Positions 1,436 to 63,904 of a stretch of 64,000 nt of DNA are shown here, in pieces; within the stretch, counting starts at the first letter, position 1, and every line of letters begins with the position of its first letter. Below the pieces are notes generated by a model. The model saw only the letters and a program-made list of their open reading frames with translations, did not search any database and was not told the DNA's origin. Made by a program: the position numbers and the translations under genes. The DNA comes from Parcubacteria group bacterium GW2011_GWA1_40_21 (lineage in GTDB: Bacteria > Patescibacteriota > Minisyncoccia > Phycocordibacterales > GWA1-40-21), in contig LBYO01000006.1 in the NCBI GenBank assembly GCA_000996205.1, forward strand, positions 1,969 through 65,968. The letters are read 5' to 3'.

Positions 1436-1444
1436 GTCAAGACT

Positions 1445-1520
1445 AGCTTCTTAGCTTGTAGCTTTTTAGGAAAGAATGAATTGCAAAACGAAACCTTCCT
1501 AAAAAACCTGCCTTCTTTTT
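1445..1520 (+). terminator. Intrinsic terminator-like hairpin after rny embedded in gene-boundary repeat (tagcttcttagcttgtagctttttagg...ccttcctaaaaaa)
   Basis: Inverted repeat tttttaggaa / ttcctaaaaa directly after rny stop; same 27-mer recurs at 63106. Confidence 0.45.
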
Positions 1521-1699
1521 TTTCTTTTTCCTTAACCTACCACCTATCACCTACCACCTTCTGCCTGCTATTGCGTAAAAAATGGCTTAATATATAATAC
1601 TCGGAGGCTTAAGTCCTGCGGAAATCATTTTTTGCGGGATGAATTAAAAGAGTAAAATCGGGTCGATTCATTATTAAGTTTAAAATTTAAAAATAACAA

Positions 1700-10633: not shown

Positions 10634-11404
10634 TTAAAACTCAAGCTCCAGCGAAATAGGGCAGTGGTCGGAGCCAAGGATGTTGTAAAGGACATCGGCT
10701 TTTTTCAAATCTTGTTTTAAATCTGCGCTGACGAAAAAATAATCCAATCTCCAGCCGACATTTCTGTCTCGGGCAAAAGTTTTCATATCCCAGTAAGTAT
10801 ATTTGTTTTTCGCTTCGGGATAAAAATATCTGAAGGTGTCAATGTACCCACAACCAACGACTTTATCTATCCAAGCCCTTTCAACCGGCAAGAAGCCTGT
10901 ATTGTTTTCATTTTCTTTCGGTCTGGCGAGATCAATTTCTTTATGAGCGGTGTTTATGTCTCCGCAAAATATTATTTTATGACCATTTTTCCTTAATTTT
11001 TCAATATAATTCATAAAAGCATCGTAAAATCTTAATTTATAGTCAAGACGCACTGGCCCGCCTCCTCCATTGGGAAAATAAATATTAATTAAGACAAAAT
11101 CTTTGAAGAATAAAGCCAAAAGCCTGCCTTCTTGGTCAAATTCTTCTATTCCCATTCCATATTCCACTTTATCTGGCTCTACTTTGGTGAAAACCGCCAC
11201 ACCACTATAGCCCTTTTTAATTTTGGAATGGTCAAAATAAGAATGATAACCTTGGGTATTTCTTACTTCATCCGGTAATTGTTCGGGGTGCGCTTTGGTC
11301 TCTTGAAGGCAGAAAATATCCGGCGATTCATTCTTAAACCATTCCCAACAACCCTTTTTATAACAAGCCCGCAAGCCGTTAACATTCCAAGAGATAAGTT
11401 TCAT
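10634..11404 (-). CDS. xth: Exodeoxyribonuclease III
   Basis: MKLISWNVNGLRA N-terminus and C-terminal GSDHCP motif of the EEP family. Confidence 0.9.
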   Translation of the reverse strand: MKLISWNVNGLRACYKKGCWEWFKNESPDIFCLQETKAHPEQLPDEVRNTQGYHSYFDHSKIKKGYSGVAVFTKVEPDKVEYGMGIEEFDQEGRLLALFFKDFVLINIYFPNGGGGPVRLDYKLRFYDAFMNYIEKLRKNGHKIIFCGDINTAHKEIDLARPKENENNTGFLPVERAWIDKVVGCGYIDTFRYFYPEAKNKYTYWDMKTFARDRNVGWRLDYFFVSADLKQDLKKADVLYNILGSDHCPISLELEF

Positions 11405-13201: not shown

Positions 13202-14128
13202 TCAGCTTCGACGGGTGCGGTGAAAATTTTTATGAACATCGCGGAGCTGTTTGTCCGTTACATGGGTGTAGATTTGGGTGGTGGCGATGTTGGAGTGGCC
13301 GAGGAGGGCTTGGACGGAGCGGATGTCGGCGCCGTTGCTTAATAAATCAGTGGCGAAGCAATGGCGGATGACATGAGGCGTGACTTTTTTGGAAATTCCG
13401 GCTTTGATAGCGTAATGTTTGACGATCCTTTCTATTGATCTTGGTGTCAGTCTTAGGTTGTAGGTTGTAGGTTGTAGGTTGTAGGGGGGGGTCCTAACAA
13501 ACAAGGCATCGTCCATATCTTTTCTTTTGTCCAAATAATTTTTTACTGCCGTTTTGGCTTCACTGGAAAGAAAAACAACCCTAATTTTTTCGCCTTTGCC
13601 TCTAATGGAAAATTCGTCCGACTTCAAACTGATGTCTCTTGGCAGGGAACAAAGTTCGGAAACACGTAAGCCTGTGGAAAAAAATAATTCTAAAATTGCT
13701 CTGTCTCTTAATCCCTTTAGCTCGCTAGTGTCTGGAGCATTCATCAGCCGATTAAGCTCCTCCGGCGTGATGAGGTCAAGCGACCTTTCTCCGATTTTCG
13801 CGAGCTCAATCCTCTCCGGAGGCAAAGTTTTAATACCCCGCTTTATCATATACTTCAGAAAAGAACGGAGGGCGATCAAATAATAATTCTGGGTATTTTT
13901 CTTAAGATTTTCCTTTCGGCCGTCAATTGTTTCCCCTGATTCTTGGCGATTCAGCCACAGTCTATATTCTCTCAAAACATCATCAGTAATGCCTTTCGGG
14001 TCATTGAGTTTTGAAAAGTCAAAAAATCTGCTCAAATACCTGTCATAGTTGGCGACAGTTTTGAGGCTTCTTCCTTTCTCAATTTCCAAATGCTCCAAAT
14101 ATTGCCGCTTTAATTGCTCTAGTGTCAT
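13202..14128 (-). CDS. Tyrosine recombinase XerC/XerD-like, with internal repeat insertion
   Basis: C-terminal HVIRHCFATDLL...LLGHSNIATTQIYTHV catalytic box; contains heptamer tandem repeat plus C8 tract at 13455-13491. Confidence 0.85.
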   Translation of the reverse strand: MTLEQLKRQYLEHLEIEKGRSLKTVANYDRYLSRFFDFSKLNDPKGITDDVLREYRLWLNRQESGETIDGRKENLKKNTQNYYLIALRSFLKYMIKRGIKTLPPERIELAKIGERSLDLITPEELNRLMNAPDTSELKGLRDRAILELFFSTGLRVSELCSLPRDISLKSDEFSIRGKGEKIRVVFLSSEAKTAVKNYLDKRKDMDDALFVRTPPYNLQPTTYNLRLTPRSIERIVKHYAIKAGISKKVTPHVIRHCFATDLLSNGADIRSVQALLGHSNIATTQIYTHVTDKQLRDVHKNFHRTRRS

Positions 14129-14351
14129 AAATGTGTAGCCACATTATACTACTGATTAGTTTACAGGTTCTAGTGAATAGGTGTTAACCAAAAGAAGATG
14201 ACAATAATTTTCAATTATCAATTTTCAGTTTTTATTGAATTTCCAATTTCTAAATTTTCAACCTAAAACCTAACCACTAGAAACTAAAACCTGTTTGAAC
14301 GACGAAATGACAATCGCCAGTCGTGCTGATATAATAACTATAATTAAGCAA

Positions 14352-17516: not shown

Positions 17517-17636
17517 TTCTTTATTTGCGAAAATTCCACTCTTTCATTCCCCCCTCCCCAGTTTTAAGTTTTAAGTTTTAGAAAATATCTGGAACCTAAA
17601 ACTGGGGAGGGAAAATCCAGATTTAGAAAATAAATT

Positions 17637-18770
17637 ATGGACTTTAAAACTATCAAAGATATCGAAAATTTGAGAGGCAAAAGGGTGCTTTTGAGGCTTG
17701 ATCTCAATGTTCCCATAATTGATGGGGTATTGCTAGATGATTTCCGCATCAAGAAATCGATGTCTACTCTGAACTTCCTCCGTGAAAACGGCGCCAAAAC
17801 CATAGTAATAAGCCACATAGAAAGCGTTGAAACAAAATCTTTAAAAGCTGTCTACGAATACTTATCTAAATTTTTTAATATCCTTTTTTTAAAAGACTAT
17901 TTCGGCGAAGAAACTAAAAAGGCCATAGACGGAATGAATGAGGGTGATTTTATTCTTTTGGAAAATTTGAGAATTTACGAAGGCGAAGAGAAAAGTTCCG
18001 AACACTTTGCCCGACAGTTAGCGTCGCTTGGAGAGATTTATGTCAATGAAGCATTTTCGGTTTCGCACAGACAACACGCTTCCATAGTCGGAGTGCCGAA
18101 GTTTCTTCCGAGCTATGCCGGAATTTTGTTTGAAGAAGAGGTTGCGAATTTATCCAAAGCCTTTAATCCAGAACATCCGTTTTTATTCATATTGGGCGGA
18201 GCAAAGTTTGAAACCAAAATGCCACTTATTGAAAAATTTCTTAAACTGGCGGATTTTGTTTTTGTCGGAGGAGCTTTGGCAAATGACTTCTTCAAAGAGA
18301 AAGGCTATGAGACGGGATTATCAGTTTTGTCAGCCAAAAAATTTAATCTGGGGAAAATGTTGGATTCAGATAAATTGCTTTTGCCAGCCGATGTCGTGGT
18401 AAAAAATAATCAAGGAGTTTTCATAAAAAGGCCGAGTCAAGTATTAAAGGAAGATAAAATTCTGGACGACGGACCCGCCACGATTTCAATGCTGGAGAAA
18501 AAATTATTATCGTCAAAATTCGTCCTCTGGAACGGACCATTGGGCGATTATGAAAAAGGTTTCCGAGAGGGTACGGTTGAGCTCGCGAGAGCAATCGCCA
18601 AAAGCGGTGCGAAGTCAATCATCGGGGGAGGCGACACTTTGGCCGTCGTTTCAAAAATGAATCTGGAAAACAAATTTTCTTTCATCTCCACCGGCGGCGG
18701 AGCGATGCTTGATTTTCTAGCGAACGAAACCTTGCCGGGGATTGAAGCGCTGGAACAAAGTTCTGGTTGA
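17637..18770 (+). CDS. pgk: Phosphoglycerate kinase
   Basis: RLDLNVP N-terminal motif and C-terminal GGGA...GGGD nucleotide-binding motifs. Confidence 0.9.
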   Translation: MDFKTIKDIENLRGKRVLLRLDLNVPIIDGVLLDDFRIKKSMSTLNFLRENGAKTIVISHIESVETKSLKAVYEYLSKFFNILFLKDYFGEETKKAIDGMNEGDFILLENLRIYEGEEKSSEHFARQLASLGEIYVNEAFSVSHRQHASIVGVPKFLPSYAGILFEEEVANLSKAFNPEHPFLFILGGAKFETKMPLIEKFLKLADFVFVGGALANDFFKEKGYETGLSVLSAKKFNLGKMLDSDKLLLPADVVVKNNQGVFIKRPSQVLKEDKILDDGPATISMLEKKLLSSKFVLWNGPLGDYEKGFREGTVELARAIAKSGAKSIIGGGDTLAVVSKMNLENKFSFISTGGGAMLDFLANETLPGIEALEQSSG

Positions 18771-18796
18771 AGGAAGTATTCAAGCCGTTTTAATTG

Positions 18797-19192
18797 TTAT
18801 AAAGCCTTTTTAATTTTTTCCGCAATCATTTCTTTTTCGCCTTCTCTGTATTCCTTCCTCGGCCAGAAGACGGGCATATTGTCGTTGAAATATCGAGGTA
18901 TGAGATGGATATGAAAATGCGGGACATCTATTCCGACAACAGAAAGAGCAACGAAATCGGCTGACATTGATTCTTTGATAACTTTAATCAATTTTTTTGC
19001 GTTCGTGAAGACAGCCGAAAGAGTATCGTCCGGAGTGCTTTCCATTTTTTCATAATGTTTTTTCGGTATGACAAGAGTATGTCCGAAATTAACAGGCTTA
19101 ATGTCCAAAAAGGCGACGACTTCATCGTCCTCGTAAATTTTCTCCGCCGGTATCGCTCCTTTTATTATTTTGCAGAATATACAGTCGTCCAT
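18797..19192 (-). CDS. HIT-family (histidine triad) protein
   Basis: CIFCKII, HFHIHLIP histidine triad. Confidence 0.8.
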   Translation of the reverse strand: MDDCIFCKIIKGAIPAEKIYEDDEVVAFLDIKPVNFGHTLVIPKKHYEKMESTPDDTLSAVFTNAKKLIKVIKESMSADFVALSVVGIDVPHFHIHLIPRYFNDNMPVFWPRKEYREGEKEMIAEKIKKAL

Positions 19193-33314: not shown

Positions 33315-34166
33315 ATGACATCGTCCAATAAATTCAAGTTTTATTTTTTGCTCGGATTTTTGGCGGTTAATATTTTCATCTGGCATACGGTCGTGATGGA
33401 AGACAGGCGGGGGATGCTGAAAGTTTCATTTTTGGATATCGGGCAGGGTGATGCGATTTTTATAGAAGCACCGAATGGCAATCAGGTCTTGATTGATGGT
33501 GGGTCAAATAGAGCGGTATTGAAAGAGCTCGGCAAGGTGATGCCTTTTTACGACAGGACGATTGACGCGGTGATTGCCACCCATCCGGATAAAGACCACA
33601 TCGGCGGGCTGGTTGAAGTATTAAAAAATTATCGCGCGGATATGGTGATGGAGCCGGGCGTTTCTTCCGACACCGGTGTCTATCAAGAATTGGAGAAAAC
33701 CATTGCTGACAAAAAATTACCAAGAATATTGGCGAGAAGAGGAATATCGCTTAATCTGGGTGATGGCGCGCGGCTCAATATTTTATTTCCCGACAGAGAC
33801 ACAGACGAATGGGAGACCAACACCGCTTCAATCGTGGCGAAGCTCGTTTACGGCAACAATTCTTTCCTCCTCACGGGCGATTCGCCGACAGCGATAGAAA
33901 ATTATTTGTCTATGATTGACGGGCGAAATTTAAAAAGCGATGTCTTGAAAGCGGGTCACCACGGCTCCCGAACATCCACTTCGGAATCTTTCGCCAACCT
34001 CGTGTCTCCGGAGTACGCGGTCATCTCCGCCGGCAAAAACAACCAATACGGTCATCCGCACAAAGAAGTGCTAGACATTCTGGAGAAAATAAAATCTGTA
34101 ATACTTAAAACTTACGAAAATGGGACGATTTCGTTTAGTTCGGACGGGGAGCGGATTAGGTTTTAG
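33315..34166 (+). CDS. Metallo-beta-lactamase-fold ComEC C-terminal-domain protein (stand-alone)
   Basis: LDIGQGDAIFI, HPDKDHIGG (HxHxDH), LKAGHHGSRTS blocks of ComEC MBL domain; N-terminal TM anchor. Confidence 0.8.
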   Translation: MTSSNKFKFYFLLGFLAVNIFIWHTVVMEDRRGMLKVSFLDIGQGDAIFIEAPNGNQVLIDGGSNRAVLKELGKVMPFYDRTIDAVIATHPDKDHIGGLVEVLKNYRADMVMEPGVSSDTGVYQELEKTIADKKLPRILARRGISLNLGDGARLNILFPDRDTDEWETNTASIVAKLVYGNNSFLLTGDSPTAIENYLSMIDGRNLKSDVLKAGHHGSRTSTSESFANLVSPEYAVISAGKNNQYGHPHKEVLDILEKIKSVILKTYENGTISFSSDGERIRF

Positions 34167-34221
34167 GTAGTAGGTATAGTAGGTGGTAGGCGGTATGGAA
34201 GAGGAAAAAACAACAAAAAAA

Positions 34222-37679: not shown

Positions 37680-37800
37680 GGAAGCAAAGTAGCTTTTTAG
37701 CTTGTAGCTGTTTAGGGAAGATTAGGATTTAGAAAACCTAAAAAGCTAAACAGCTACAAGCTACCTACCTTCTTCAAATTTCTTCCTAAAAAGCTAATAA
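37680..37800. repeat. Gene-boundary inverted repeat cluster (agcttgtagct family) between rpsG and fusA; probable terminator/attenuator
   Basis: agctttttagcttgtagctgtttagg ... cctaaaaagctaaacagctacaagcta ... cctaaaaagctaataagctacaagcta. Confidence 0.5.
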
Positions 37801-37826
37801 GCTACAAGCTAAATAGTTAAAAAATT

Positions 37827-41040: not shown

Positions 41041-41092
41041 TATAAATTTAGCTTCTTTTCCTAAAACCTACAACCTAACACCTAATTAAACT

Positions 41093-41629
41093 ATGTCAGT
41101 CATCAAACACAAAGAACAAAGAGTCGGTATTTTTATTGATACTCAAAATCTCTACCACAGTTCCAAAAATCTATATAATGCTAAAGTGAACTTCGGTCAA
41201 ATCGTCAAAGATGCTCTGGCGGGAAGACGGCTGGTGCGCGCGGTGGCTTATGTCATCACCACCGAAAGTGGCGAGGAGAAAAGCTTTTTTGAAGCGCTGG
41301 AAAAAGTCGGGATTGAAACGAAGACGAAAAACCTCCAGATTTTTGCCGGTGGCGCAAAAAAGGCGGATTGGGATGTCGGACTTGCTGTTGATGCGATAAA
41401 GCTCGCTCCAAAACTTGATACGGTGATCATAATTTCCGGCGACGGAGACTTTATCCCGCTCGTGGAATATCTTCAAGTTAATGAAGGATGTCAGGTGGAA
41501 GTTATCGCTTTTGGAAAATCTGCATCAGCCAAACTCAAAGAAGCCGCCGATGATTTCATAGACCTAGACCAAAATGCCAGAAAATATCTTATGGGCTTCG
41601 GCGGGGGAAGGGAGAGGGGGAGGAAATAG
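41093..41629 (+). CDS. NYN-domain (LabA-like/PIN-like) protein
   Basis: RVGIFIDTQNLYH...DVGLAVDAI...IIISGDGDF NYN signature. Confidence 0.7.
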   Translation: MSVIKHKEQRVGIFIDTQNLYHSSKNLYNAKVNFGQIVKDALAGRRLVRAVAYVITTESGEEKSFFEALEKVGIETKTKNLQIFAGGAKKADWDVGLAVDAIKLAPKLDTVIIISGDGDFIPLVEYLQVNEGCQVEVIAFGKSASAKLKEAADDFIDLDQNARKYLMGFGGGRERGRK

Positions 41630-46154: not shown

Positions 46155-46263
46155 TAAAGAAGCCATCGCGGAATAAATTTCTAATTTCTAATCAAATTCA
46201 AATTTCTTAAACCTACAACCTACTACCTAAAACCTACAACCTTCTTCGCGCGTCTAGTATATT

Positions 46264-52180: not shown

Positions 52181-52263
52181 TTTTGGCGGTGGAGAATATT
52201 TCTGTTTCCTACAACCTACCACCTAAAACCTACAACCTTCTTCTTGTGTGGTATAGTTTTCCG

Positions 52264-54273
52264 ATGGATTATTTAAAAGACCTGAATGAGAAACAAAAAG
52301 AAACTGTTTTGCATAAAGACGGTCCGCTTCTTATTCTTGCAGGAGCAGGCTCGGGGAAGACGAAAACGATTACTCACAGAATTTTCCATCTTGTGAGCGA
52401 AGGTGTTTCTCCTCGCCAAATTTTGGCAATCACTTTTACCAACAAAGCGGCGAAAGAAATGAGGGAGAGGGTGCTTGATTTGCTTAAAAAACTTCCAGGA
52501 GCTTTGCCGGCTATCCAAGTTGGCGCGAACAACGAAATCAGTAAAAATTTCCAATTTCCAATTTCCAATTTCCAAAAAGATGAAATCCCGTTCGTAAGCA
52601 CTTTTCATTCTCTGGGCGTCCGGATTATCAAAGAAAATTCCAAAGAGCTTGGAATTCCTCGCCATTTTACTATTTTTGACAAAGGAGATTCGCTGAAAGC
52701 CGTTAAAGAAATACTGAAAGAGCTGGACATTGATTCCAAGCAATTTGAACCGTCAAAAATTTTGGGAATAATTTCCAGGGAAAAAGGCGCTCTGACAACC
52801 GCCGAGAATTATTTAGAAAAAGCGGGCGCTTTCAAGGGCTACTCTCTGAACAAAGTGGTATCCGATGTTTGGACGCTTTATGAAAAAAGATTGGGGCAAG
52901 AGAAATCTCTGGATTTTGATGACCTTTTGCTGAAGACATACCGACTTCTTCGCAAAAGCAAGGAAATTTTGGATTATTACCAAAATTTATGGCAATACAT
53001 TCACATTGACGAATATCAGGACACGAACAAAGCTCAATATGAAATAATAAAACTTCTTGCGGCAAAAAACAGGAACATCTGCGCCGTCGGCGACATTGAT
53101 CAGAATATCTACAGCTGGAGAGGCGCTGACATCCAAAATATTCTGAATTTTGAAAAAGATTATCCCGAGGCGAAAGCAGTAATTTTGGAGGAAAATTATC
53201 GCTCAACCCAGACGATACTCGCGGTGGCGAACGGCATCATAGAGAAGAACACAATGCGAAGAAAGAAAAATTTGTTCACCAAAAATCAAGAGGGCGACAA
53301 GGTGACTCTATTTGAAGCTCATAATGAAAACGAAGAGGCGCGCTTCATCGCGGAGAAAGTCAAACGACTTATCGCGGACGGAGTCGCCCCAAAAGAAATC
53401 GCCATTCTTTACAGGGCCAATTTTCAATCCAGAGTCATTGAAGAAGCTTTTTTAACTCTCAATCTTCCTTATCAGCTTCTCGGCGTCAAATTTTTTGAGA
53501 GAAAAGAAGTTAAAGACACGCTTTCTTATCTGCGCGCCGCGCTAAACAGAGACAGCTTGAGCGACATCAAAAGGGTGATAAATTTTCCGACGAGAGGGCT
53601 GGGAAAAGTGACGCTCGCCAAGGTATTCGCCGGCAGAGAGGCGGAACTGCCAGCCGGAACCAAAGCTAAGGTGGCGAATTTTTACGGTCTTTTGGATAAA
53701 ATAAAAGAAAATGTTTTATCCTTAAAACCTTCGGAGCTTGTGCGGTTTATTGTCAAAGAAAGCGGGATTGAAACTGAACTGAAAGACGGAAGCGATGACG
53801 ACAAAGAAAGACTGGAAAACATAATGGAACTCGCTACTATGGCGAAGAAATACGATTATCTGCCGTACGGAGAAGGTGTTGAAAAGCTGATTGAAGAATC
53901 GGCTTTGTCTACCGACCAAGACTCTCTTGAAAAAGAAAGCGGAGCGGTCAAAATGATGACTGTTCACGCTTCAAAAGGTCTTGAATTTGATTATATTTTC
54001 ATTTCCGGTCTTGAAGAAGATCTTTTCCCGCACCAAAGAATCGGTGGCGGCGCGAAAAGCATTGAGGACTCGGAGGAAGAACGGCGCTTGTTTTATGTCG
54101 CCATAACGAGAGCCAAGAAAAAACTTTTTCTTTCTTACGCGAGGTCAAGAACGATTTTCGGCTCGCTTCAGATCAACAGTCCGTCCCAATTTATCTCCGA
54201 CATAGAACCTGAATTTCTGGAGGAAGAAAAAAGTTTTGAGTATCGAGAAAAAATAATTTATATGGATTTGTGA
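52264..54273 (+). CDS. pcrA: ATP-dependent DNA helicase PcrA/UvrD-family, with in-frame heptamer-repeat insertion
   Basis: GAGSGKT Walker A, TFHS, DEYQDTN, VGDIDQNIYSWRGA, TVHASKGLEFD, VAITRAK motifs; start moved to Met at 52264 (track ORF start overlaps repeat array). Confidence 0.9.
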   Translation: MDYLKDLNEKQKETVLHKDGPLLILAGAGSGKTKTITHRIFHLVSEGVSPRQILAITFTNKAAKEMRERVLDLLKKLPGALPAIQVGANNEISKNFQFPISNFQKDEIPFVSTFHSLGVRIIKENSKELGIPRHFTIFDKGDSLKAVKEILKELDIDSKQFEPSKILGIISREKGALTTAENYLEKAGAFKGYSLNKVVSDVWTLYEKRLGQEKSLDFDDLLLKTYRLLRKSKEILDYYQNLWQYIHIDEYQDTNKAQYEIIKLLAAKNRNICAVGDIDQNIYSWRGADIQNILNFEKDYPEAKAVILEENYRSTQTILAVANGIIEKNTMRRKKNLFTKNQEGDKVTLFEAHNENEEARFIAEKVKRLIADGVAPKEIAILYRANFQSRVIEEAFLTLNLPYQLLGVKFFERKEVKDTLSYLRAALNRDSLSDIKRVINFPTRGLGKVTLAKVFAGREAELPAGTKAKVANFYGLLDKIKENVLSLKPSELVRFIVKESGIETELKDGSDDDKERLENIMELATMAKKYDYLPYGEGVEKLIEESALSTDQDSLEKESGAVKMMTVHASKGLEFDYIFISGLEEDLFPHQRIGGGAKSIEDSEEERRLFYVAITRAKKKLFLSYARSRTIFGSLQINSPSQFISDIEPEFLEEEKSFEYREKIIYMDL

Positions 54274-54355
54274 TACGAAGAAGGTTGTAGGCGTTAGGTT
54301 GTAGGTTGTAGGTTGTAGGAAGAAAAAGTCAAAGTCATTTCTAAAAATAAATATT

Positions 54356-55249
54356 ATGAACAACTTTTCAAATTTAAAAGCTAAAAAATCGCTCGGGCAA
54401 AATTTTTTGAAATCAAAAAATGCCATTTTTGCGATGATTAAAGCAGGAGATGTGAGTGAGAATGATATCGTGCTGGAAGCCGGTCCGGGCAAAGGCGTCC
54501 TCACGGAAGAATTGCTCAAAAAAGCCGGCAAGGTCATTGCCGTTGAAAAAGACGATATGCTGGTAGAATTCCTCCGCGATAAATTTAAACTAGAAATAGA
54601 AAGTGGGAAACTAGAACTCGTTCACGGCGACATCTTGGAGTTTAATCCCGCAACCTACCACCTACCACCTACCACCTACAACCTTCCCCTCACAACCTAC
54701 AACCTTCAACCTACAACCTTCCCCTCACAACCTACAACCTTCAAACTTATCGCCAACATCCCTTATCACATCACCGGCCAATTTTTAAGAAAATTTCTGT
54801 CCGGCGACATTCAGCCTTCCAAAATGGTGATTCTCCTTCAAAAAGAAGTGATGGAAAGAATTATGGCGAATGACGGCAAAGAAAGCATACTTTCCATAAG
54901 CGTAAAAGCTTATGGCCGACCGAAAAATATCGGCAAAGTTTCCAAAGAAAACTTTTCTCCGAAGCCAAAAGTTGACTCGGCGATACTTCTCATAGACAAT
55001 ATCTCGCGCGATTTTTTCACTTCGTCTGTCCAAAATAACGAAGATAAATTTTTCCAGATTGTTAAAGCCGGTTTTGCTCACAAAAGAAAAATGCTGGCTG
55101 GAAACTTAGAACATTCCAAGGACTCCCTTTGGAAAGGGAGAAACCGAGAGGAAATTGAAAAGATTTTTGAAACTTGCAAAATACCGCCGAAATCCAGAGC
55201 GGAGGATATAAAACTGGAACAGTGGAAGCGCTTAAGTTCCATGCTTTAA
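54356..55249 (+). CDS. rsmA: 16S rRNA adenine dimethyltransferase RsmA/KsgA with roughly 30-aa repeat-encoded insertion
   Basis: LGQNFL, EAGPGKGVLT SAM motif, NIPYHIT; insertion 54649-54745. Confidence 0.9.
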   Translation: MNNFSNLKAKKSLGQNFLKSKNAIFAMIKAGDVSENDIVLEAGPGKGVLTEELLKKAGKVIAVEKDDMLVEFLRDKFKLEIESGKLELVHGDILEFNPATYHLPPTTYNLPLTTYNLQPTTFPSQPTTFKLIANIPYHITGQFLRKFLSGDIQPSKMVILLQKEVMERIMANDGKESILSISVKAYGRPKNIGKVSKENFSPKPKVDSAILLIDNISRDFFTSSVQNNEDKFFQIVKAGFAHKRKMLAGNLEHSKDSLWKGRNREEIEKIFETCKIPPKSRAEDIKLEQWKRLSSML

Positions 55250-55386
55250 GCCATTTAGCCAAAACCGACATGCAATGTCGGTTTTGGCTTTACTGTTGGA
55301 AATGTACTTGGAAACGAAACATCCAAGTAAAGTGCGAAATTTGGCAGTCGGAGTACCAAGCGCAAAGTGAATGAAACGGCAGGCAG

Positions 55387-62303: not shown

Positions 62304-63107
62304 ATGAATTATAGCGAACAAATATTAAAAGCCAGATTTGAACAGCTTCCAGAGGATGTGAGAAGCGCGATAACGGCTACGCCTTGGAATGAAAAATTAA
62401 AACAGATTTCAGACAAGCACAATCTGCACATAGACCAAGCGGGACATCTCGGAGAAGAAACGGCTATAGTGATGTTCGGTCTTGACCACACCGATAATCT
62501 AGTCGCAAACATTGCCAAACATGTTGAAGTGTCGGAAGAAAAAGCTGAAGCGATCGCGGAGGATTTGAATCGGGAAATTTTCTTGAAGGTGAGGGAGTCG
62601 CTTAAGAAAATATTTGAGGAAAGAGATGAGAGGGCAGGCGGTAGCTTTTTAGCTGGTAGCTTATTAGGGAAGACTGAAGAAAAAGAAAGCGAAACGGAAA
62701 CGGATGAGACCCTGAAAAGGGAAGACATTTTGCGGGAAATTGAGGACAAAGAACATCACAATCTGCCAGCCGTTAACAAGCAAGAACTCCACTTGGAGGC
62801 GAGGCCTCCAAGTGAGATTAGCGCGCAAGTTTCTTTTCAGAACCAAAAGATGGCGGACAGCGCCAAAAGAGACAAACCAGCCGAAATGATTGTTATCCGC
62901 CCCGAACAACCCCAAAGACAACCTGCGATGCCACAAGGGGAAGCAATGAAAACAATGAAGGGCGATATTTTCAAGAACAAGATGAGCGGAACAGTGAATA
63001 TGCCGAGAGAAACAATTGAGATAAATGACGCCAAGACGCCAGCTAAAAAGTTGCCATCGGATATTAGTAATAAAATAGATCCTTATCGGGAGAAAATAGG
63101 AAAGTAG
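62304..63107 (+). CDS. Hypothetical acidic protein
   Basis: 267 aa, highly charged; between VirB6-like and PrgI-like genes. Confidence 0.45.
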   Translation: MNYSEQILKARFEQLPEDVRSAITATPWNEKLKQISDKHNLHIDQAGHLGEETAIVMFGLDHTDNLVANIAKHVEVSEEKAEAIAEDLNREIFLKVRESLKKIFEERDERAGGSFLAGSLLGKTEEKESETETDETLKREDILREIEDKEHHNLPAVNKQELHLEARPPSEISAQVSFQNQKMADSAKRDKPAEMIVIRPEQPQRQPAMPQGEAMKTMKGDIFKNKMSGTVNMPRETIEINDAKTPAKKLPSDISNKIDPYREKIGK

Positions 63108-63303
63108 CTTCTTAGCTTGTAGCTTTTTAGGTAAGAAAAGAATTGAAGTGGAAATTTATCTTTTGGTAAAAATTTAAGTTATACTAAAGAGGAAAGCCTT
63201 TTATCAGAAGTGATGAAGATGCTCAACAAAATGCTTTCTTCTTTAAAAAGTTCTCAACTTTCTTAACCTAAAAAGCTAATAAGCTGCAAGCTAACAAGCT
63301 AGT

Positions 63304-63738
63304 ATGAAATTCCAAGTCCCGCAATTTATTGAAATAGAAGACAAGATATTCGGGCCTTTGACCTTGAAGCAATTTATTTACCTTGCCGGAGGGGGCGGAA
63401 TTTCTTTCGTCATTTATTCCATAATTCCTTACCTTGTCATAGCTTTATTTTTCATCATACCGGTTATGCTTTTCTCTGTTGCTTTGGCTTTCTATAAGAT
63501 AAATGGCAAGCCGTTCATATTCATTCTTGAGTCGGCCGTGAAATACACTTTGAGCAACAAACTTTATCTGTGGCAAAAAAGAGAAAAAGTTATAACAAAA
63601 AAAGACAGCATTTCCAACGACAACTCATCCCTCCTCAAAGTACCTAAACTGTCAGAAAGCAAGCTCAAAGATTTAACTTGGAGTTTAGATATAAATGAAA
63701 ATATCAATCCGATTACGAGAGATAGTAAAAGGTTATAG
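63304..63738 (+). CDS. PrgI-family (VirB3-like) small membrane protein
   Basis: FGPLTLKQFIYLAGGGGISFVIYSIIPYLVIALFFIIPVMLFSVALAFYKINGKPF matches PrgI family pattern. Confidence 0.55.
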   Translation: MKFQVPQFIEIEDKIFGPLTLKQFIYLAGGGGISFVIYSIIPYLVIALFFIIPVMLFSVALAFYKINGKPFIFILESAVKYTLSNKLYLWQKREKVITKKDSISNDNSSLLKVPKLSESKLKDLTWSLDINENINPITRDSKRL

Positions 63739-63904
63739 GTGCTAGGCGTTAGGTTTTAGGGGTTAGGAAAGAAAAGATAAGATTGGGAATATAAAAAATA
63801 TGTTATAATTTTTAAAAGTTGCAGGTTGCTGTTTTACAACTTTCTTCACTCTCGCCCTAAAACCTAACACCTATAACCTTCTTAAAAACCTACAACCTAA
63901 AAAA

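What the first reader, a model, noticed from the sequence alone, without database searches (positions are those of the whole stretch)
54649..54745. Heptamer tandem-repeat array (CCTACAA/CCTACCA family) inserted in-frame inside rsmA/ksgA
The same CCTACAA-like 7-mer array that decorates many intergenic regions here (for example 46193-46240, 52208-52250, 54286-54320, 63735-63900) occurs inside the KsgA coding sequence, between the conserved HGD block and the NIPY catalytic motif. It is translated as ATYHLPPTTYNLPLTTYNLQPTTFPSQPTTF. Seven-nt units are frame-neutral only in multiples of three, so the ORF survives only with specific copy numbers.
Basis: seen in the sequence. Interest (0 to 1): 0.6.

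Follow-up and report, generated by a model that had tools for sequence, protein, structure and literature searches.

The report
In-frame heptamer repeat inside KsgA
A 7-base DNA repeat that litters the spaces between genes in this tiny groundwater bacterium has also grown inside the ribosome-methylating enzyme KsgA (and two other housekeeping genes), where it survives only in frame-preserving amounts and adds a floppy surface loop; it is a new example of a known kind of bacterial repeat.

Summary
Window 54645-54749 is a degenerate CCTACAA/CCTACCA array of about 13 units, read in frame inside rsmA/ksgA between motif III (HGD) and motif IV (NIPY).

- **Not chance:** the same unit forms at least 10 other arrays in the 64 kb window, against about 0.4 matches expected.
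- **Clade-specific:** it is absent from 1.29 Mb of 80 other Paceibacteria species.
- **Frame rule holds:** the H..NIPY segment is 27 aa in most orthologues and 34, 41 or 48 aa in 13 of the 34 closest. Those are steps of 7 aa, or three heptamers.
- **Recent turnover:** two strains 98% identical differ by exactly 63 nt (nine units) at this site.
- **Orientation rule:** only the CCTACAA orientation is stop-free. The reverse carries TAG in every unit.
- **Disordered loop:** AlphaFold gives pLDDT below 50 for the insert and above 90 for the rest of the protein.

Best reading: this is a coding outpost of an STRR/TAACTGA-like heptanucleotide repeat family. It grows and shrinks by slippage or recombination and is tolerated in a permissive loop. 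Low synonymous divergence inside the array hints at nucleotide-level homogenisation. It is a new member of a known kind, of moderate interest.

The parts
54356..55249 (+). rsmA/ksgA ORF (297 aa, stop included). All catalytic motifs are intact.
   Evidence: ORF list. Pfam PF00398 E 2.7e-49. AF2 model with mean pLDDT 83.5, whose top Foldseek hits are KsgA/Dim1 structures.
54645..54749 (+). In-frame heptamer array, about 13 units of CCTACCA/CCTACAA/CCTTCCC/CTCACAA/CCTTCAA. It encodes residues about 98-129 (ATYHLPPTTYNLPLTTYNLQPTTFPSQPTTF), a net +63 nt over the 27-aa baseline loop.
   Evidence: TRF, scan, orthologue alignments, and pLDDT below 50 for residues 105-127.
54653..54679 (+). Longest perfect run inside the array, (ACCTACC) x 3.9.
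   Evidence: Exact-copy scan.
54660..54744 (+). 35-nt (5-unit) higher-order duplication within the array, 2.4 copies at 94% identity. It is also present in L106, so it is older than the split between those two lineages.
   Evidence: TRF on the window and on L106.
54280..54325 (-). Intercistronic array between the uvrD stop and the ksgA start. The + strand reads GAAGAAGG(TTGTAGG)n, the stop-containing orientation. It is complementary to the coding array and to the array upstream of uvrD.
   Evidence: Copy number is 0-7 in syntenic relatives. Pairing is shown.
52205..52243 (+). Array (CCTACAA)x4 immediately upstream of the uvrD start region. It is syntenic in relatives with 2-4 units.
52546..52575 (+). 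Second in-frame heptamer array, with a different unit (AATTTCC x 4.3), inside UvrD/PcrA. It is translated ISKNFQFPISNFQ and lies in a stretch 19 aa longer than in L107, L108 and L110.
   Evidence: TRF and UvrD alignment A2.
13445..13491 (-). Third in-frame array, (CCTACAA)x4.6, inside the XerC/D-like tyrosine recombinase ORF 13202..14128(-). It is translated PPYNLQPTTYNLRL in a variable loop.
   Evidence: Orthologue loop variants, including +7 aa forms, are.
46205..46247 (+). Intergenic array between convergent genes. A 37-nt stretch is nearly identical to 52207-52243.
41057..41086 (+). Intergenic array ending 7 nt before the ATG at 41093.
1533..1559 (+). Intergenic array (ACCTACC type).
34155..34177 (-). 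Array in TAGG orientation overlapping the stop codon of ORF 33315..34166.
63736..63767 (-). Array in TAGG orientation starting at the stop codon of ORF 63304..63738.
63856..63900 (+). CCTAAAA/CCTACAA array downstream of a promoter-like TGTTATAAT. It forms an inverted pair with 63736-63767.
55257..55289 (+). Intrinsic-terminator-like hairpin after ksgA. None was found between uvrD and ksgA, so co-transcription of the two genes is possible.

Best explanation
The array is a coding-region outpost of a clade-specific family of heptanucleotide tandem repeats (unit CCTAMAA, reverse TTKTAGG). That family is otherwise found between genes in this Parcubacteria/Paceibacteria lineage.

**How it arises (inferred).** Arrays grow, shrink and can be lost by slipped-strand mispairing or unequal recombination between units. 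At ksgA the codons for the conserved Ser/Thr-Tyr-Lys at the start of beta-strand 4 (TCC TAC AAG) themselves spell one CCTACAA unit. That gives the repeat a foothold directly before the NIPY motif.

**Why it survives in a gene (shown).** Purifying selection acts as a filter in three ways.
1. Only net changes that keep the reading frame persist, mostly three units (21 nt, 7 aa: PTTYNLQ).
2. Only the CCTACAA orientation is tolerated, because the complement has TAG in every unit and therefore in all three frames.
3. Only permissive positions are tolerated. Here that is a surface loop between motif III and motif IV, which many lineages vary in length.

**What it produces.** The product is a roughly 21-residue Pro/Thr/Tyr/Asn/Leu/Gln-rich disordered loop on an otherwise normal KsgA. 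No role for the inserted peptide itself is supported; that it has none is inferred. The unusually low nucleotide divergence of the array suggests ongoing homogenisation between units (concerted evolution) rather than free drift (inferred).
For: **Family membership and significance:**

**Clade specificity:** the double-unit pattern gives 0 hits in 1.29 Mb from 80 other Paceibacteria species, against 21 in the window and 1-15 per locus in close relatives.

**Quantised loop lengths:** 27 aa (15 proteins), 34 (4), 41 (1) and 48 (8) among the 34 closest orthologues. Heptamer units are visible in the DNA of every close relative.

**Recent turnover:** L001 and L115 are 98.2% identical over 4.6 kb.
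- They differ by exactly 63 nt in ksgA, bounded by CCTACAA. This leaves TCC TAC AAG CTT in L115.
- They differ by 2 units (14 nt) in the intergenic array upstream of uvrD.
- So intergenic arrays change by any number of units, and the coding array changed by a multiple of three.

**Orientation rule:** both CCTACAA-type coding arrays are in the sense, stop-free orientation. This follows from reading the sequence directly.

**Generality:** in-frame arrays also occur in a XerC/D-like gene, with +7 aa variants in orthologues, and in UvrD.

**Permissive loop:**
- pLDDT is below 50 for residues 105-127 and above 90 elsewhere.
- Other lineages carry unrelated inserts giving segments of 34-77 aa at the same place.
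- The corresponding B. subtilis residues 106-122 are not among the rRNA-contacting loops (loop1, loop12, loop14, beta6-beta7 linker) listed for the 30S-KsgA complex (preprint 10.1101/2021.09.15.460497).

**Homogenisation:** between the window and L106 the loop has 7 differences in 99 nt, and the rest of the gene has 139 in 762 (Fisher p = 0.004). Synonymous/nonsynonymous codon changes are 2/4 in the loop and 61/42 elsewhere.

**Precedent:** heptanucleotide repeats are the commonest long SSR class in bacteria. TAACTGA arrays behave the same way: one orientation carries stops, and 11 ORFs carry the other orientation (PMC4679880).
Against: - No read-level data were available, so slippage is inferred from comparison of assemblies and was not observed directly.
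- Six of the 34 closest orthologues have loop lengths off the 7-aa series, so other indels contribute.
- Simple local slippage does not by itself explain why the same unit appears at many unlinked loci, or why a XerC loop of similar length was replaced rather than extended. A dispersal or conversion step is needed and its mechanism is unknown.
- The low synonymous divergence could reflect selection on the nucleotide sequence, meaning a function, rather than concerted evolution. Only one of the eight pairwise comparisons is significant, and alignment within repeats is biased towards similarity.
- Distance of the loop from the rRNA interface is inferred from the published list of contact loops, not measured on coordinates.
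Confidence: 0.72

Rival explanations
1. The coding array is a functional nucleotide-level element rather than passenger DNA. As RNA, (CCUACAA)n would pair with the intercistronic (UAGGUUG)n array 330 nt upstream, enclosing the ksgA start region. Alternatively it would serve, like the intergenic arrays, as a platform for a protein that reads 7-nt units, so tuning uvrD-ksgA expression.
For: - The MFE fold of 54270-54760 pairs the two arrays, with z = -5.95 against shuffles.
- uvrD is bracketed by 36-nt, 92% complementary inverted arrays.
- The arrays are syntenically conserved upstream and downstream of uvrD in several relatives.
- Array DNA diverges less than the rest of the gene, with few synonymous changes.
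- No terminator was found between uvrD and ksgA.
- CspB-type proteins bind heptamer repeats one protein per unit (cited in PMC4679880).
Against: Co-occurrence of the two arrays is not conserved.
- L115 keeps the 7-unit spacer array but has lost the coding array.
- L110 and L113 have coding units but no complementary spacer array.
- L003 has the spacer array but a non-complementary AGCTAAC-type coding array.

Complementarity is automatic for any two arrays of one family in opposite orientation. There is no expression or structure-probing data.
Confidence: 0.12
2. The array is a contingency (phase-variation) locus. Gain or loss of single 7-nt units switches KsgA off and on by frameshift. This would modulate 16S rRNA dimethylation, ribosome quality control or aminoglycoside (kasugamycin-type) sensitivity.
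For: - The unit length is not a multiple of three.
- Copy number does change between near-identical strains.
- From established knowledge, not tested here: ksgA loss is viable in many bacteria and gives kasugamycin resistance.
Against: - The array is degenerate (76% matches), and the longest perfect run is 3.9 units. That is a poor substrate for frequent slippage.
- Every full-length orthologue and cluster member recovered is in frame.
- The observed strain difference is nine units, which keeps the frame.
- The same repeats sit in uvrD and a xerC/D-like gene, which are not typical contingency genes.
- One short contig (L114) breaks inside the array but looks chimeric rather than frameshifted.
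Confidence: 0.05
3. The inserted peptide is an adaptive protein module. The flexible PTTYNLQ-type linker would be selected for a new interaction, for example with the unusual CPR ribosome or with a partner protein.
For: - The 48-aa form is retained in several lineages of 76-81% identity.
- Tandem-repeat-derived disordered regions are proposed to be functional in Borg elements (PMC9879509).
Against: - Protein-level constraint in the loop looks relaxed: 4 nonsynonymous against 2 synonymous changes, compared with 42 against 61 in the rest of the gene.
- The insert is absent or shorter in close relatives, and was lost cleanly in a 98%-identical strain.
- The same peptide appears in unrelated enzymes simply wherever the DNA repeat is read in frame.
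- It is predicted to be disordered, with no conserved contact.
Confidence: 0.06
4. The arrays are copies of a small mobile element (MITE/RPE-like) that inserts as a unit, including into genes. They would then not be locally grown microsatellites.
For: - Two intergenic copies (46211-46247 and 52207-52243) share a nearly identical 37-nt sequence, including the non-repeat end CCTTCTTC.
- The same unit occurs at many unlinked loci and replaced a XerC loop.
- Other relatives carry a GC-rich hairpin element in frame in the very same KsgA loop (L005).
- Rickettsia palindromic elements are a precedent for in-frame selfish DNA (own knowledge; mentioned in PMC10969869).
Against: - The arrays have no terminal inverted repeats, no target-site duplication and no fixed length.
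- Copy number varies unit by unit at syntenic sites.
- The G-free strand cannot form a hairpin.
- The ksgA array shares degenerate internal units with orthologous arrays, so it evolved in place for a long time.
Confidence: 0.08

Closest known systems
TAACTGA heptamer direct repeats of marine Beggiatoaceae, some cyanobacteria and Bacteroidetes (MacGregor 2015, PMC4679880)
   Same: - Arrays of 7-nt units in a few to several copies, dispersed and mostly intergenic, close to start and stop codons.
- One orientation carries stop codons in all frames and often overlaps gene ends.
- The other orientation is open and is occasionally found inside ORFs.
- Indels between strains come in 7-nt increments.
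- The mechanism of spread is unknown.
   Different: - The unit (CCTACAA) and the phylum (Patescibacteria) differ.
- Here the stop-free orientation lies upstream of genes and the stop-containing one downstream.
- ORF-internal copies here sit inside the catalytic domains of conserved housekeeping enzymes (KsgA, XerC/D-like, UvrD). In Beggiatoa they are mostly at the ends of proteins or in hypothetical proteins.
STRR heptanucleotide repeats of heterocystous cyanobacteria, and GGGAATC/GGGGAYT repeats of Xanthomonas and Nostoc (PMC4692102); heptanucleotide long SSRs in general (Mrazek et al. 2007, as cited)
   Same: - Genome-specific heptamer units.
- Strong over-representation of period 7 relative to other periods.
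- Intergenic bias and variable copy number.
   Different: - The units here are G-free on one strand, so G-quadruplex formation does not apply.
- Those families are reported as under-represented in coding regions. Here 3 of the 5 most regular arrays in 64 kb are coding.
Rickettsia palindromic elements (RPE) inserted in frame in protein-coding genes (own knowledge; mentioned in PMC10969869)
   Same: Repetitive, apparently selfish DNA is tolerated in frame within conserved genes of a reduced genome, at positions that do not disrupt the fold.
   Different: RPEs are palindromic elements of about 100-150 bp and fixed length, inserted as units. Here the sequence is a tandem array of 7-nt units with unit-wise length variation and no palindrome.
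Borg tandem repeats creating intrinsically disordered regions (PMC9879509)
   Same: Fast-evolving nucleotide tandem repeats occur both between genes and inside ORFs. Inside ORFs they create disordered, P/T/S-rich stretches.
   Different: All Borg repeats in ORFs have unit lengths divisible by three. Here the unit is 7 nt, and the frame is kept only through copy-number combinations.
Contingency loci (phase-variable SSRs) of host-adapted pathogens
   Same: A simple repeat whose unit length is not a multiple of three lies inside a coding sequence.
   Different: The array here is degenerate, sits in housekeeping genes, and no out-of-frame allele was seen.

Membership tests
RsmA/KsgA 16S rRNA adenine dimethyltransferase (host gene) | Match to the RrnaAD family profile above threshold | tested here: met
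   PF00398 scores 168 bits (cut-off 24), E 2.7e-49, covering residues 7-294.
RsmA/KsgA 16S rRNA adenine dimethyltransferase (host gene) | SAM-binding motif I (GxGxGxLT), motif II (E.D), motif III (D) and catalytic motif IV (N-[IL]-P-Y) are present | tested here: met
   EAGPGKGVLT, VEKDD, HGDIL and ANIPY are all invariant in the alignment of 42 orthologues.
RsmA/KsgA 16S rRNA adenine dimethyltransferase (host gene) | Two-domain KsgA/Dim1/Erm fold | tested here: met
   AF2 gives pTM 0.81. The top Foldseek hits are KsgA structures 6IFW, 3TQS, 6IFT and 7V2Q, with probability 1.00.
RsmA/KsgA 16S rRNA adenine dimethyltransferase (host gene) | Dimethylation of A1518/A1519 with the insert present | not testable with these tools
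   Needs an enzymatic or complementation assay.
Heptanucleotide long simple sequence repeats (STRR / TAACTGA-type) | Head-to-tail tandem copies of a 7-nt unit | tested here: met
   TRF period 7, 13.4 copies.
Heptanucleotide long simple sequence repeats (STRR / TAACTGA-type) | The same unit forms many dispersed arrays in one genome, far above chance, while other periods do not | tested here: met
   37 matches against 0.42 expected. Period 7 gives 5 arrays and periods 4-6 and 8-12 give none.
Heptanucleotide long simple sequence repeats (STRR / TAACTGA-type) | Mainly intergenic, close to gene starts and ends, with an orientation bias set by stop codons | tested here: met
   Nine of the 11 CCTAMAA-type arrays are intergenic. 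TAGG-orientation arrays start at or after stop codons, and the coding arrays are in the stop-free orientation.
Heptanucleotide long simple sequence repeats (STRR / TAACTGA-type) | Copy-number differences in 7-nt steps between close strains | tested here: met
   L001 and L115 (98.2% identical) differ by 14 nt upstream of uvrD and by 63 nt in ksgA. Syntenic arrays have 0-7 units.
Heptanucleotide long simple sequence repeats (STRR / TAACTGA-type) | Sequence identity of the unit with a described family (STRR1-3, TAACTGA, GGGAATC) | tested here: not met
   The unit is CCTACAA/CCTAAAA, with AGCTAAC and AATTTCC as co-resident families. It is therefore a new family of the same kind, not a member of a named one.
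Phase-variable contingency locus | Long perfect repeat tract prone to frequent slippage | tested here: not met
   The longest perfect run is 27 nt (3.9 units), and the array overall has 76% matches.
Phase-variable contingency locus | Out-of-frame alleles coexisting with in-frame alleles | tested here: inconclusive
   None was found among the orthologues and cluster members examined. However, protein databases under-report frameshifted genes, and no reads were available.
MITE / RPE-like in-frame mobile element | Palindromic or terminal-inverted-repeat structure and a fixed element length | tested here: not met
   The array strand lacks G entirely within its units and cannot self-pair. Length varies by units at syntenic sites.
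Borg-type amino-acid tandem repeats | Nucleotide unit length divisible by three | tested here: not met
   The unit is 7 nt, whereas all Borg TRs in ORFs are divisible by three.

The most novel reading that the evidence does not exclude
The heptamer arrays, including the one inside ksgA, could be working parts of a clade-specific cis-regulatory system. In this reading, inverted array pairs bracket genes. The array sequence is kept at the nucleotide level even inside a coding region. The arrays would act through long-range RNA (or single-stranded DNA) pairing, or as multi-site platforms for a protein that reads 7-nt units. The coding array would then be an integral regulatory element of the uvrD-ksgA transcript rather than junk.
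Probability: 0.1. Interest if true: 0.7.

Novelty: new member of a known kind. Interest (0 to 1): 0.4.

Why it matters
- **A clean natural example of selection filtering a repeat.** The unit is not a multiple of three. Orthologues differ in steps of 7 aa, only one strand orientation is allowed in genes, and a strain-level 63-nt excision restores the ancestral length.
- **Repeat-driven protein length variation in CPR bacteria.** Ultra-small Patescibacteria genomes carry lineage-specific heptanucleotide repeat families that reach into the catalytic domains of conserved enzymes. This helps explain some of the odd insertions seen in CPR proteins.
- **Practical consequences.** Such arrays can mislead gene callers: the uvrD ORF is artificially extended through one. 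They can also break assemblies (L114) and distort alignments and phylogenies built from housekeeping genes.
- **A possible regulatory layer.** If the nucleotide-level conservation reflects function, the arrays would be a new regulatory layer in organisms that cannot yet be studied genetically.

Tried and rejected
- **Metagenome scan for KsgA relatives.** It gave only three close loci, and the rest were gut bacteria at about 30% identity. It was of little use.
- **GTDB species-representative scan with the alignment.** It returned 80 Paceibacteria loci, but none above 57% identity. They served as a background set, not for tracing the insert. The first regular expression for the loop was too strict and was replaced.
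- **Genome-specific unit identity.** I tested whether all loci of a genome switch unit together. This is rejected. L003 has a CCTACAA-type intergenic array but an AGCTAAC-type ksgA loop. The window and L108 carry both families.
- **Conserved pairing between the spacer array and the coding array.** Co-occurrence fails in L115, L110, L113 and L003.
- **Phase variation.** No out-of-frame alleles were seen and the tract is degenerate.
- **L114, the contig of P0243.** I examined it as a possible frameshift allele. Its 5' part is unrelated repeat-rich sequence joined inside the array, so it is more likely a chimeric assembly or a rearrangement. It could not be resolved.
- **Resemblance to the anti-Shine-Dalgarno sequence or to 16S helix 45.** I considered this by eye. 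Only 5-nt matches were found, and it was not pursued.
- **Rfam.** There are no hits other than four tRNAs.
Full report
**1. The observation**

The stretch 54645-54749 is a degenerate 7-nt tandem array. TRF reports 54651-54744 with period 7, 13.4 copies and 76% matches. It also reports a 35-nt higher-order period at 54660-54744 (2.4 copies, 94% matches). Written as units, the array reads CCTACCA x3, CCTACAA, CCTTCCC, CTCACAA, CCTACAA, CCTTCAA, CCTACAA, CCTTCCC, CTCACAA, CCTACAA, CCTTCAA.

The array lies inside ORF 54356..55249 (+). Its 297-aa product is a clear RsmA/KsgA (PF00398, E 2.7e-49). The array is read in frame as ATYHLPPTTYNLPLTTYNLQPTTFPSQPTTF, between HGDIL (motif III) and ANIPY (motif IV).

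The same unit family is strongly over-represented in the window:
- CCTACAACCTTC with up to 1 mismatch gives 16 hits against 0.17 expected.
- ACCTACAACCTAC with up to 2 mismatches gives 37 hits against 0.42 expected.
- Under one stringent periodicity criterion, period 7 yields five arrays. Periods 4-6 and 8-12 yield none.

The ksgA array is identical in an independent assembly (L002). The protein is on record from 14 contigs, so it is not an assembly artefact.

**2. Source organism**

The XerC-like protein of the window is 100% identical to one from 'Parcubacteria group bacterium GW2011_GWA1_40_21'. KsgA relatives are labelled Parcubacteria, Patescibacteria or Paceibacter. The window has 39.9% G+C.

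**3. It is an insertion, and it is quantised**

The segment from the motif III histidine to NIPY has these lengths among the 34 closest KsgA proteins:

| Length (aa) | Proteins |
|---|---|
| 27 | 15 |
| 34 | 4 |
| 41 | 1 |
| 48 | 8 |
| 37, 39, 40 or 50 | 6 |

It is also 27 aa in 51 of 77 more distant Paceibacteria proteins. So 28 of the 34 closest proteins lie on a series with steps of 7 aa, which is 21 nt or three heptamers.

Eighty other Paceibacteria species mostly have the equivalent of 27 aa with non-repetitive sequence. B. subtilis KsgA has 17 residues where this protein has 34.

The DNA of close relatives shows heptamer units in every case:
- L106 and L001 have 48 aa.
- L107 has 40 aa.
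- L108 has 37 aa.
- L110 has 27 aa, made of CCCACAA CCCACAA CCTAAAA CCTAAAA CCTACAA.
- L003 has 27 aa, but encoded by a different heptamer. AGCTATA AGCTAAC AGCTAAC AGCTATA AGCTAGT AGCTAAC spells SYKLTANSYKLVAN.

**4. Recent turnover**

L001 and L115 are 98.2% identical over 4.6 kb. L115 lacks exactly 63 nt, nine units, of the ksgA array. The deletion is bounded by CCTACAA, and the L115 site reads TCC TAC AAG CTT, which is Ser-Tyr-Lys-Leu.

The L001 array shares the degenerate unit pair CCTTCCC-xTCACAA with the window and L106. The array is therefore older than these lineages, and L115 is best read as a clean loss.

The same two strains differ by two units (14 nt) in the intergenic array upstream of uvrD. 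So intergenic arrays change by any number of units, and the coding one changed by a multiple of three.

The conserved Ser/Thr-Tyr-Lys at the start of beta-strand 4 can be spelled nCC TAC AAR. That spelling contains one CCTACAA unit, which is a plausible foothold for the repeat at this site. This last point is inference.

**5. Orientation rule**

Three units of CCTACAA read CCT ACA ACC TAC AAC CTA CAA (PTTYNLQ), and so cover all three frames without a stop. The complement TTGTAGG contains TAG, and so puts a stop in every frame.

Accordingly, both CCTACAA-type coding arrays are in the sense orientation. Arrays that start at or just after stop codons read TAGG... on the gene's strand (34155-34177, 54280-54325, 63736-63767). 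This parallels the TAACTGA repeats of Beggiatoaceae (PMC4679880).

**6.

- **XerC/D-like recombinase.** The array 13445-13491 (-) is (CCTACAA)x4.6 inside ORF 13202..14128, a tyrosine recombinase (PF00589, E 1e-44). It is translated PPYNLQPTTYNLRL. Orthologues show several states of the same loop:
  - the same form;
  - +7 aa forms (P0133, P0139);
  - an AGCTAAC-type form, KLTANSYKL (P0136, P0143);
  - a non-repetitive loop, QTANPNSEKVQKSKTL.
- **UvrD/PcrA.** The array 52546-52575 is (AATTTCC)x4.3 inside uvrD, translated ISKNFQFPISNFQ. It lies in a stretch 19 aa longer than in L107, L108 and L110, whose UvrD proteins are otherwise 87-90% identical.

Three of the five most regular period-7 arrays in the window are therefore coding.

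**7. Distribution of the repeat family**

A double-unit CCTAMMA pattern has 21 hits in the window and 1-15 in each close relative's locus. It has none in 1.29 Mb from 80 other Paceibacteria species, and none in L112, whose KsgA is 66% identical.

Other Paceibacteria do have period-7 arrays, but with other units. Heptamer repeats thus seem general in the group, with lineage-specific units.

Units are not strictly genome-specific. L003 combines a CCTACAA-type spacer array with an AGCTAAC-type ksgA loop. The window and L108 carry both families.

**8. Effect on the protein**

The AF2 model is confident overall (mean pLDDT 83.5, pTM 0.81, and above 90 over most of the core of the fold). It matches KsgA, Dim1 and Erm structures. 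Residues 105-127, the insert, have pLDDT below 50 and no secondary structure. They lie between a short helix (98-101) and beta-strand 4 (130-134).

Other lineages carry unrelated inserts at the same point, giving segments of 34-77 aa. One of these is a GC-rich hairpin element read as RLFGGQA (L005). The site is therefore generally permissive.

The corresponding B. subtilis residues (106-122) are not among the rRNA-contact loops described for the 30S-KsgA complex. Those are loop1, loop12, loop14 and the beta6-beta7 linker (preprint 10.1101/2021.09.15.460497). This point is indirect, because I could not measure it on coordinates.

**9. Constraint on the array**

| Window vs L106 | Differences | Synonymous / nonsynonymous codon changes |
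|---|---|---|
| Loop | 7 of 99 nt | 2 / 4 |
| Rest of the gene | 139 of 762 nt | 61 / 42 |

The difference in divergence gives Fisher p = 0.004. The loop looks relaxed at the protein level but unusually uniform at the nucleotide level. That is what concerted evolution among repeat units would give, but selection on the nucleotide motif would give the same pattern.

Other pairs mostly trend the same way but are not significant, apart from window vs L001 (p = 0.04). One pair (window vs L108) goes the other way. Alignment within repeats also favours similarity.

**10. Surroundings**

Arrays upstream of uvrD (2-4 units) and just after its stop codon (0-7 units) are syntenic in relatives. In the window they form a 36-nt, 92% complementary inverted pair around the gene.

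The spacer array is also complementary to the ksgA coding array. The MFE fold of 54270-54760 pairs them, with z = -5.95. The pairing partners do not co-occur consistently across relatives, so I treat the pairing as probably incidental.

A terminator-like hairpin follows ksgA (55257-55289). None lies between uvrD and ksgA.

**11. Explanation and comparison with known systems**

The best-supported reading is that this is a coding outpost of a clade-specific heptanucleotide repeat family. The family is of the same kind as cyanobacterial STRRs, the TAACTGA repeats of Beggiatoaceae and cyanobacteria, and the GGGAATC repeats of Xanthomonas.

Growth and loss by slippage or recombination is inferred. 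Filtering by selection for frame, orientation and a permissive position is shown by the comparative data.

It is not any of the following:
- a member of a named repeat family, because the unit differs;
- a palindromic MITE/RPE-type element;
- a Borg-type repeat, whose units are divisible by three;
- a contingency locus, on present evidence.

How the same unit comes to occupy many unlinked sites remains unexplained, here as in the literature.

**12. Verdict**

It is a new member of a known kind. Interest is moderate (0.4), resting on:
- the clear 7-aa quantisation;
- the strain-level excision;
- three housekeeping enzymes affected within 64 kb;
- the hint of nucleotide-level homogenisation inside a coding region.

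Noticed in passing
window 13445-13491 (-), inside ORF 13202..14128: A second in-frame CCTACAA array lies in a XerC/D-like tyrosine recombinase, translated PPYNLQPTTYNLRL. Orthologues show +7 aa variants, an AGCTAAC-type variant (KLTANSYKL) and non-repetitive loops at the same position.
   Followed up: yes
window 52546-52575 (+), inside uvrD 52264..54273: A third in-frame heptamer array uses a different unit, (AATTTCC)x4.3, translated ISKNFQFPISNFQ. It lies in a UvrD stretch 19 aa longer than in L107, L108 and L110.
   Followed up: yes
window 13486-13493 (-): A run of eight C (sense strand GGACCCCCCCCTAC, codons ACC CCC CCC) directly precedes the XerC array inside the coding sequence. A homopolymer of this length could itself be slippage-prone.
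   Followed up: no
window 52208-52243 and 54277-54312: uvrD is bracketed by inverted heptamer arrays of 36 nt that are 92% complementary. The match includes the non-repeat flanks CTTCTTC/GAAGAAG.
   Followed up: partly
window 52240-52266; also L106, L107, L108, L110, L001, L113, L115: The motif TGTGGTATAGT, which resembles an extended -10 element (TGnTATAAT), is conserved 6 nt before the uvrD ATG in all relatives. That holds even where the upstream array is replaced. It suggests a leaderless uvrD mRNA with the heptamer array sitting at about -35 and upstream. The ORF listing extends the uvrD ORF through the array from a TTG at 52183, which is probably spurious.
   Followed up: partly
window 1444-1470 and 63105-63131: Two nearly identical copies of TAGCTTCTTAGCTTGTAGCTTTTTAGG lie directly after stop codons (ORFs ending at 1435 and 63107). 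A similar motif is in L108 at 18791-18813. This is a second dispersed repeat family (TAGCTTN).
   Followed up: no
window 63268-63301, 37690-37823; L108 19297-19331, 19931-19966: AAGCTAA/CTAAAAAG arrays with period 7-8 lie immediately upstream of start codons. They are related to the AGCTAAC unit that encodes the KsgA loop in L003 and L026.
   Followed up: partly
L005 2670-2745; proteins P0015, P0017, P0092: In some relatives the same KsgA loop carries an in-frame GC-rich hairpin element instead. CCCGCCTCTTCGGCGGGCAAGCTACAA occurs twice in L005, with a stem of about -11.8 kcal/mol, and is read as RLFGGQA.
   Followed up: partly
L110 9925-9965; L108 about 10850-10890; window about 55335-55360: A palindromic element, GGTACTCCGACTACCAAG...CTTGGTAGTCGGAGTACC, occupies the uvrD-ksgA spacer in L110 and the region downstream of ksgA in L108. 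The window downstream of ksgA has what looks like a half-copy (GGCAGTCGGAGTACCAAGCGC).
   Followed up: no
proteins P0008 (336 aa) and P0017 (347 aa): P0008 (336 aa) carries extra inserts elsewhere in the protein, for example HSRTGGNPDSRWPNLDPRFHGDDREGGNDIAEPF after the DNISRDFF motif; these look like other translated repeat elements. P0017 (347 aa) is similarly over-long, but its extra sequence was not examined.
   Followed up: no
window about 55112-55145 (KsgA residues about 253-262, SKDSLWKGRN): A short segment near the KsgA C-terminus is present in the window, P0004 and P0010 but absent in most relatives (EHLAKSKEQIE). It is another variable spot in the same protein.
   Followed up: no
L114 1-215: A 1.1-kb contig from another Rifle sample joins unrelated sequence, rich in period-7 repeats (TTCTTCG CTTCTTC CGTTCTTA AGTTCTT AGCTTCT), to the ksgA 3' part. 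The join lies exactly inside the array. This is either an assembly chimera at the repeat or a real rearrangement.
   Followed up: partly
window 17548-17615: (AGTTTTA)x3 is flanked by the inverted C-rich and G-rich arms CCCCCCTCCCC ... GGGGAGGG in the spacer before the gene at 17637. It looks like a hairpin with a heptamer array in its loop.
   Followed up: no
window 14206-14292, 46176-46247; L113 2213-2328: AT-rich heptamer arrays (AATTTTC, AATTTCT) often lie directly next to CCTAMAA arrays in the same spacer. L113 has only the AT-rich type in its uvrD-ksgA spacer.
   Followed up: no
L094 10298-10322 (Kaiserbacteria), L026 274-299, L078: More distant Paceibacteria also show period-7 structure with other units (AAGCTCG, AGCTAAC) in the same KsgA loop. 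The SYKL-x-AN region seems recurrently prone to heptamer periodicity.
   Followed up: partly
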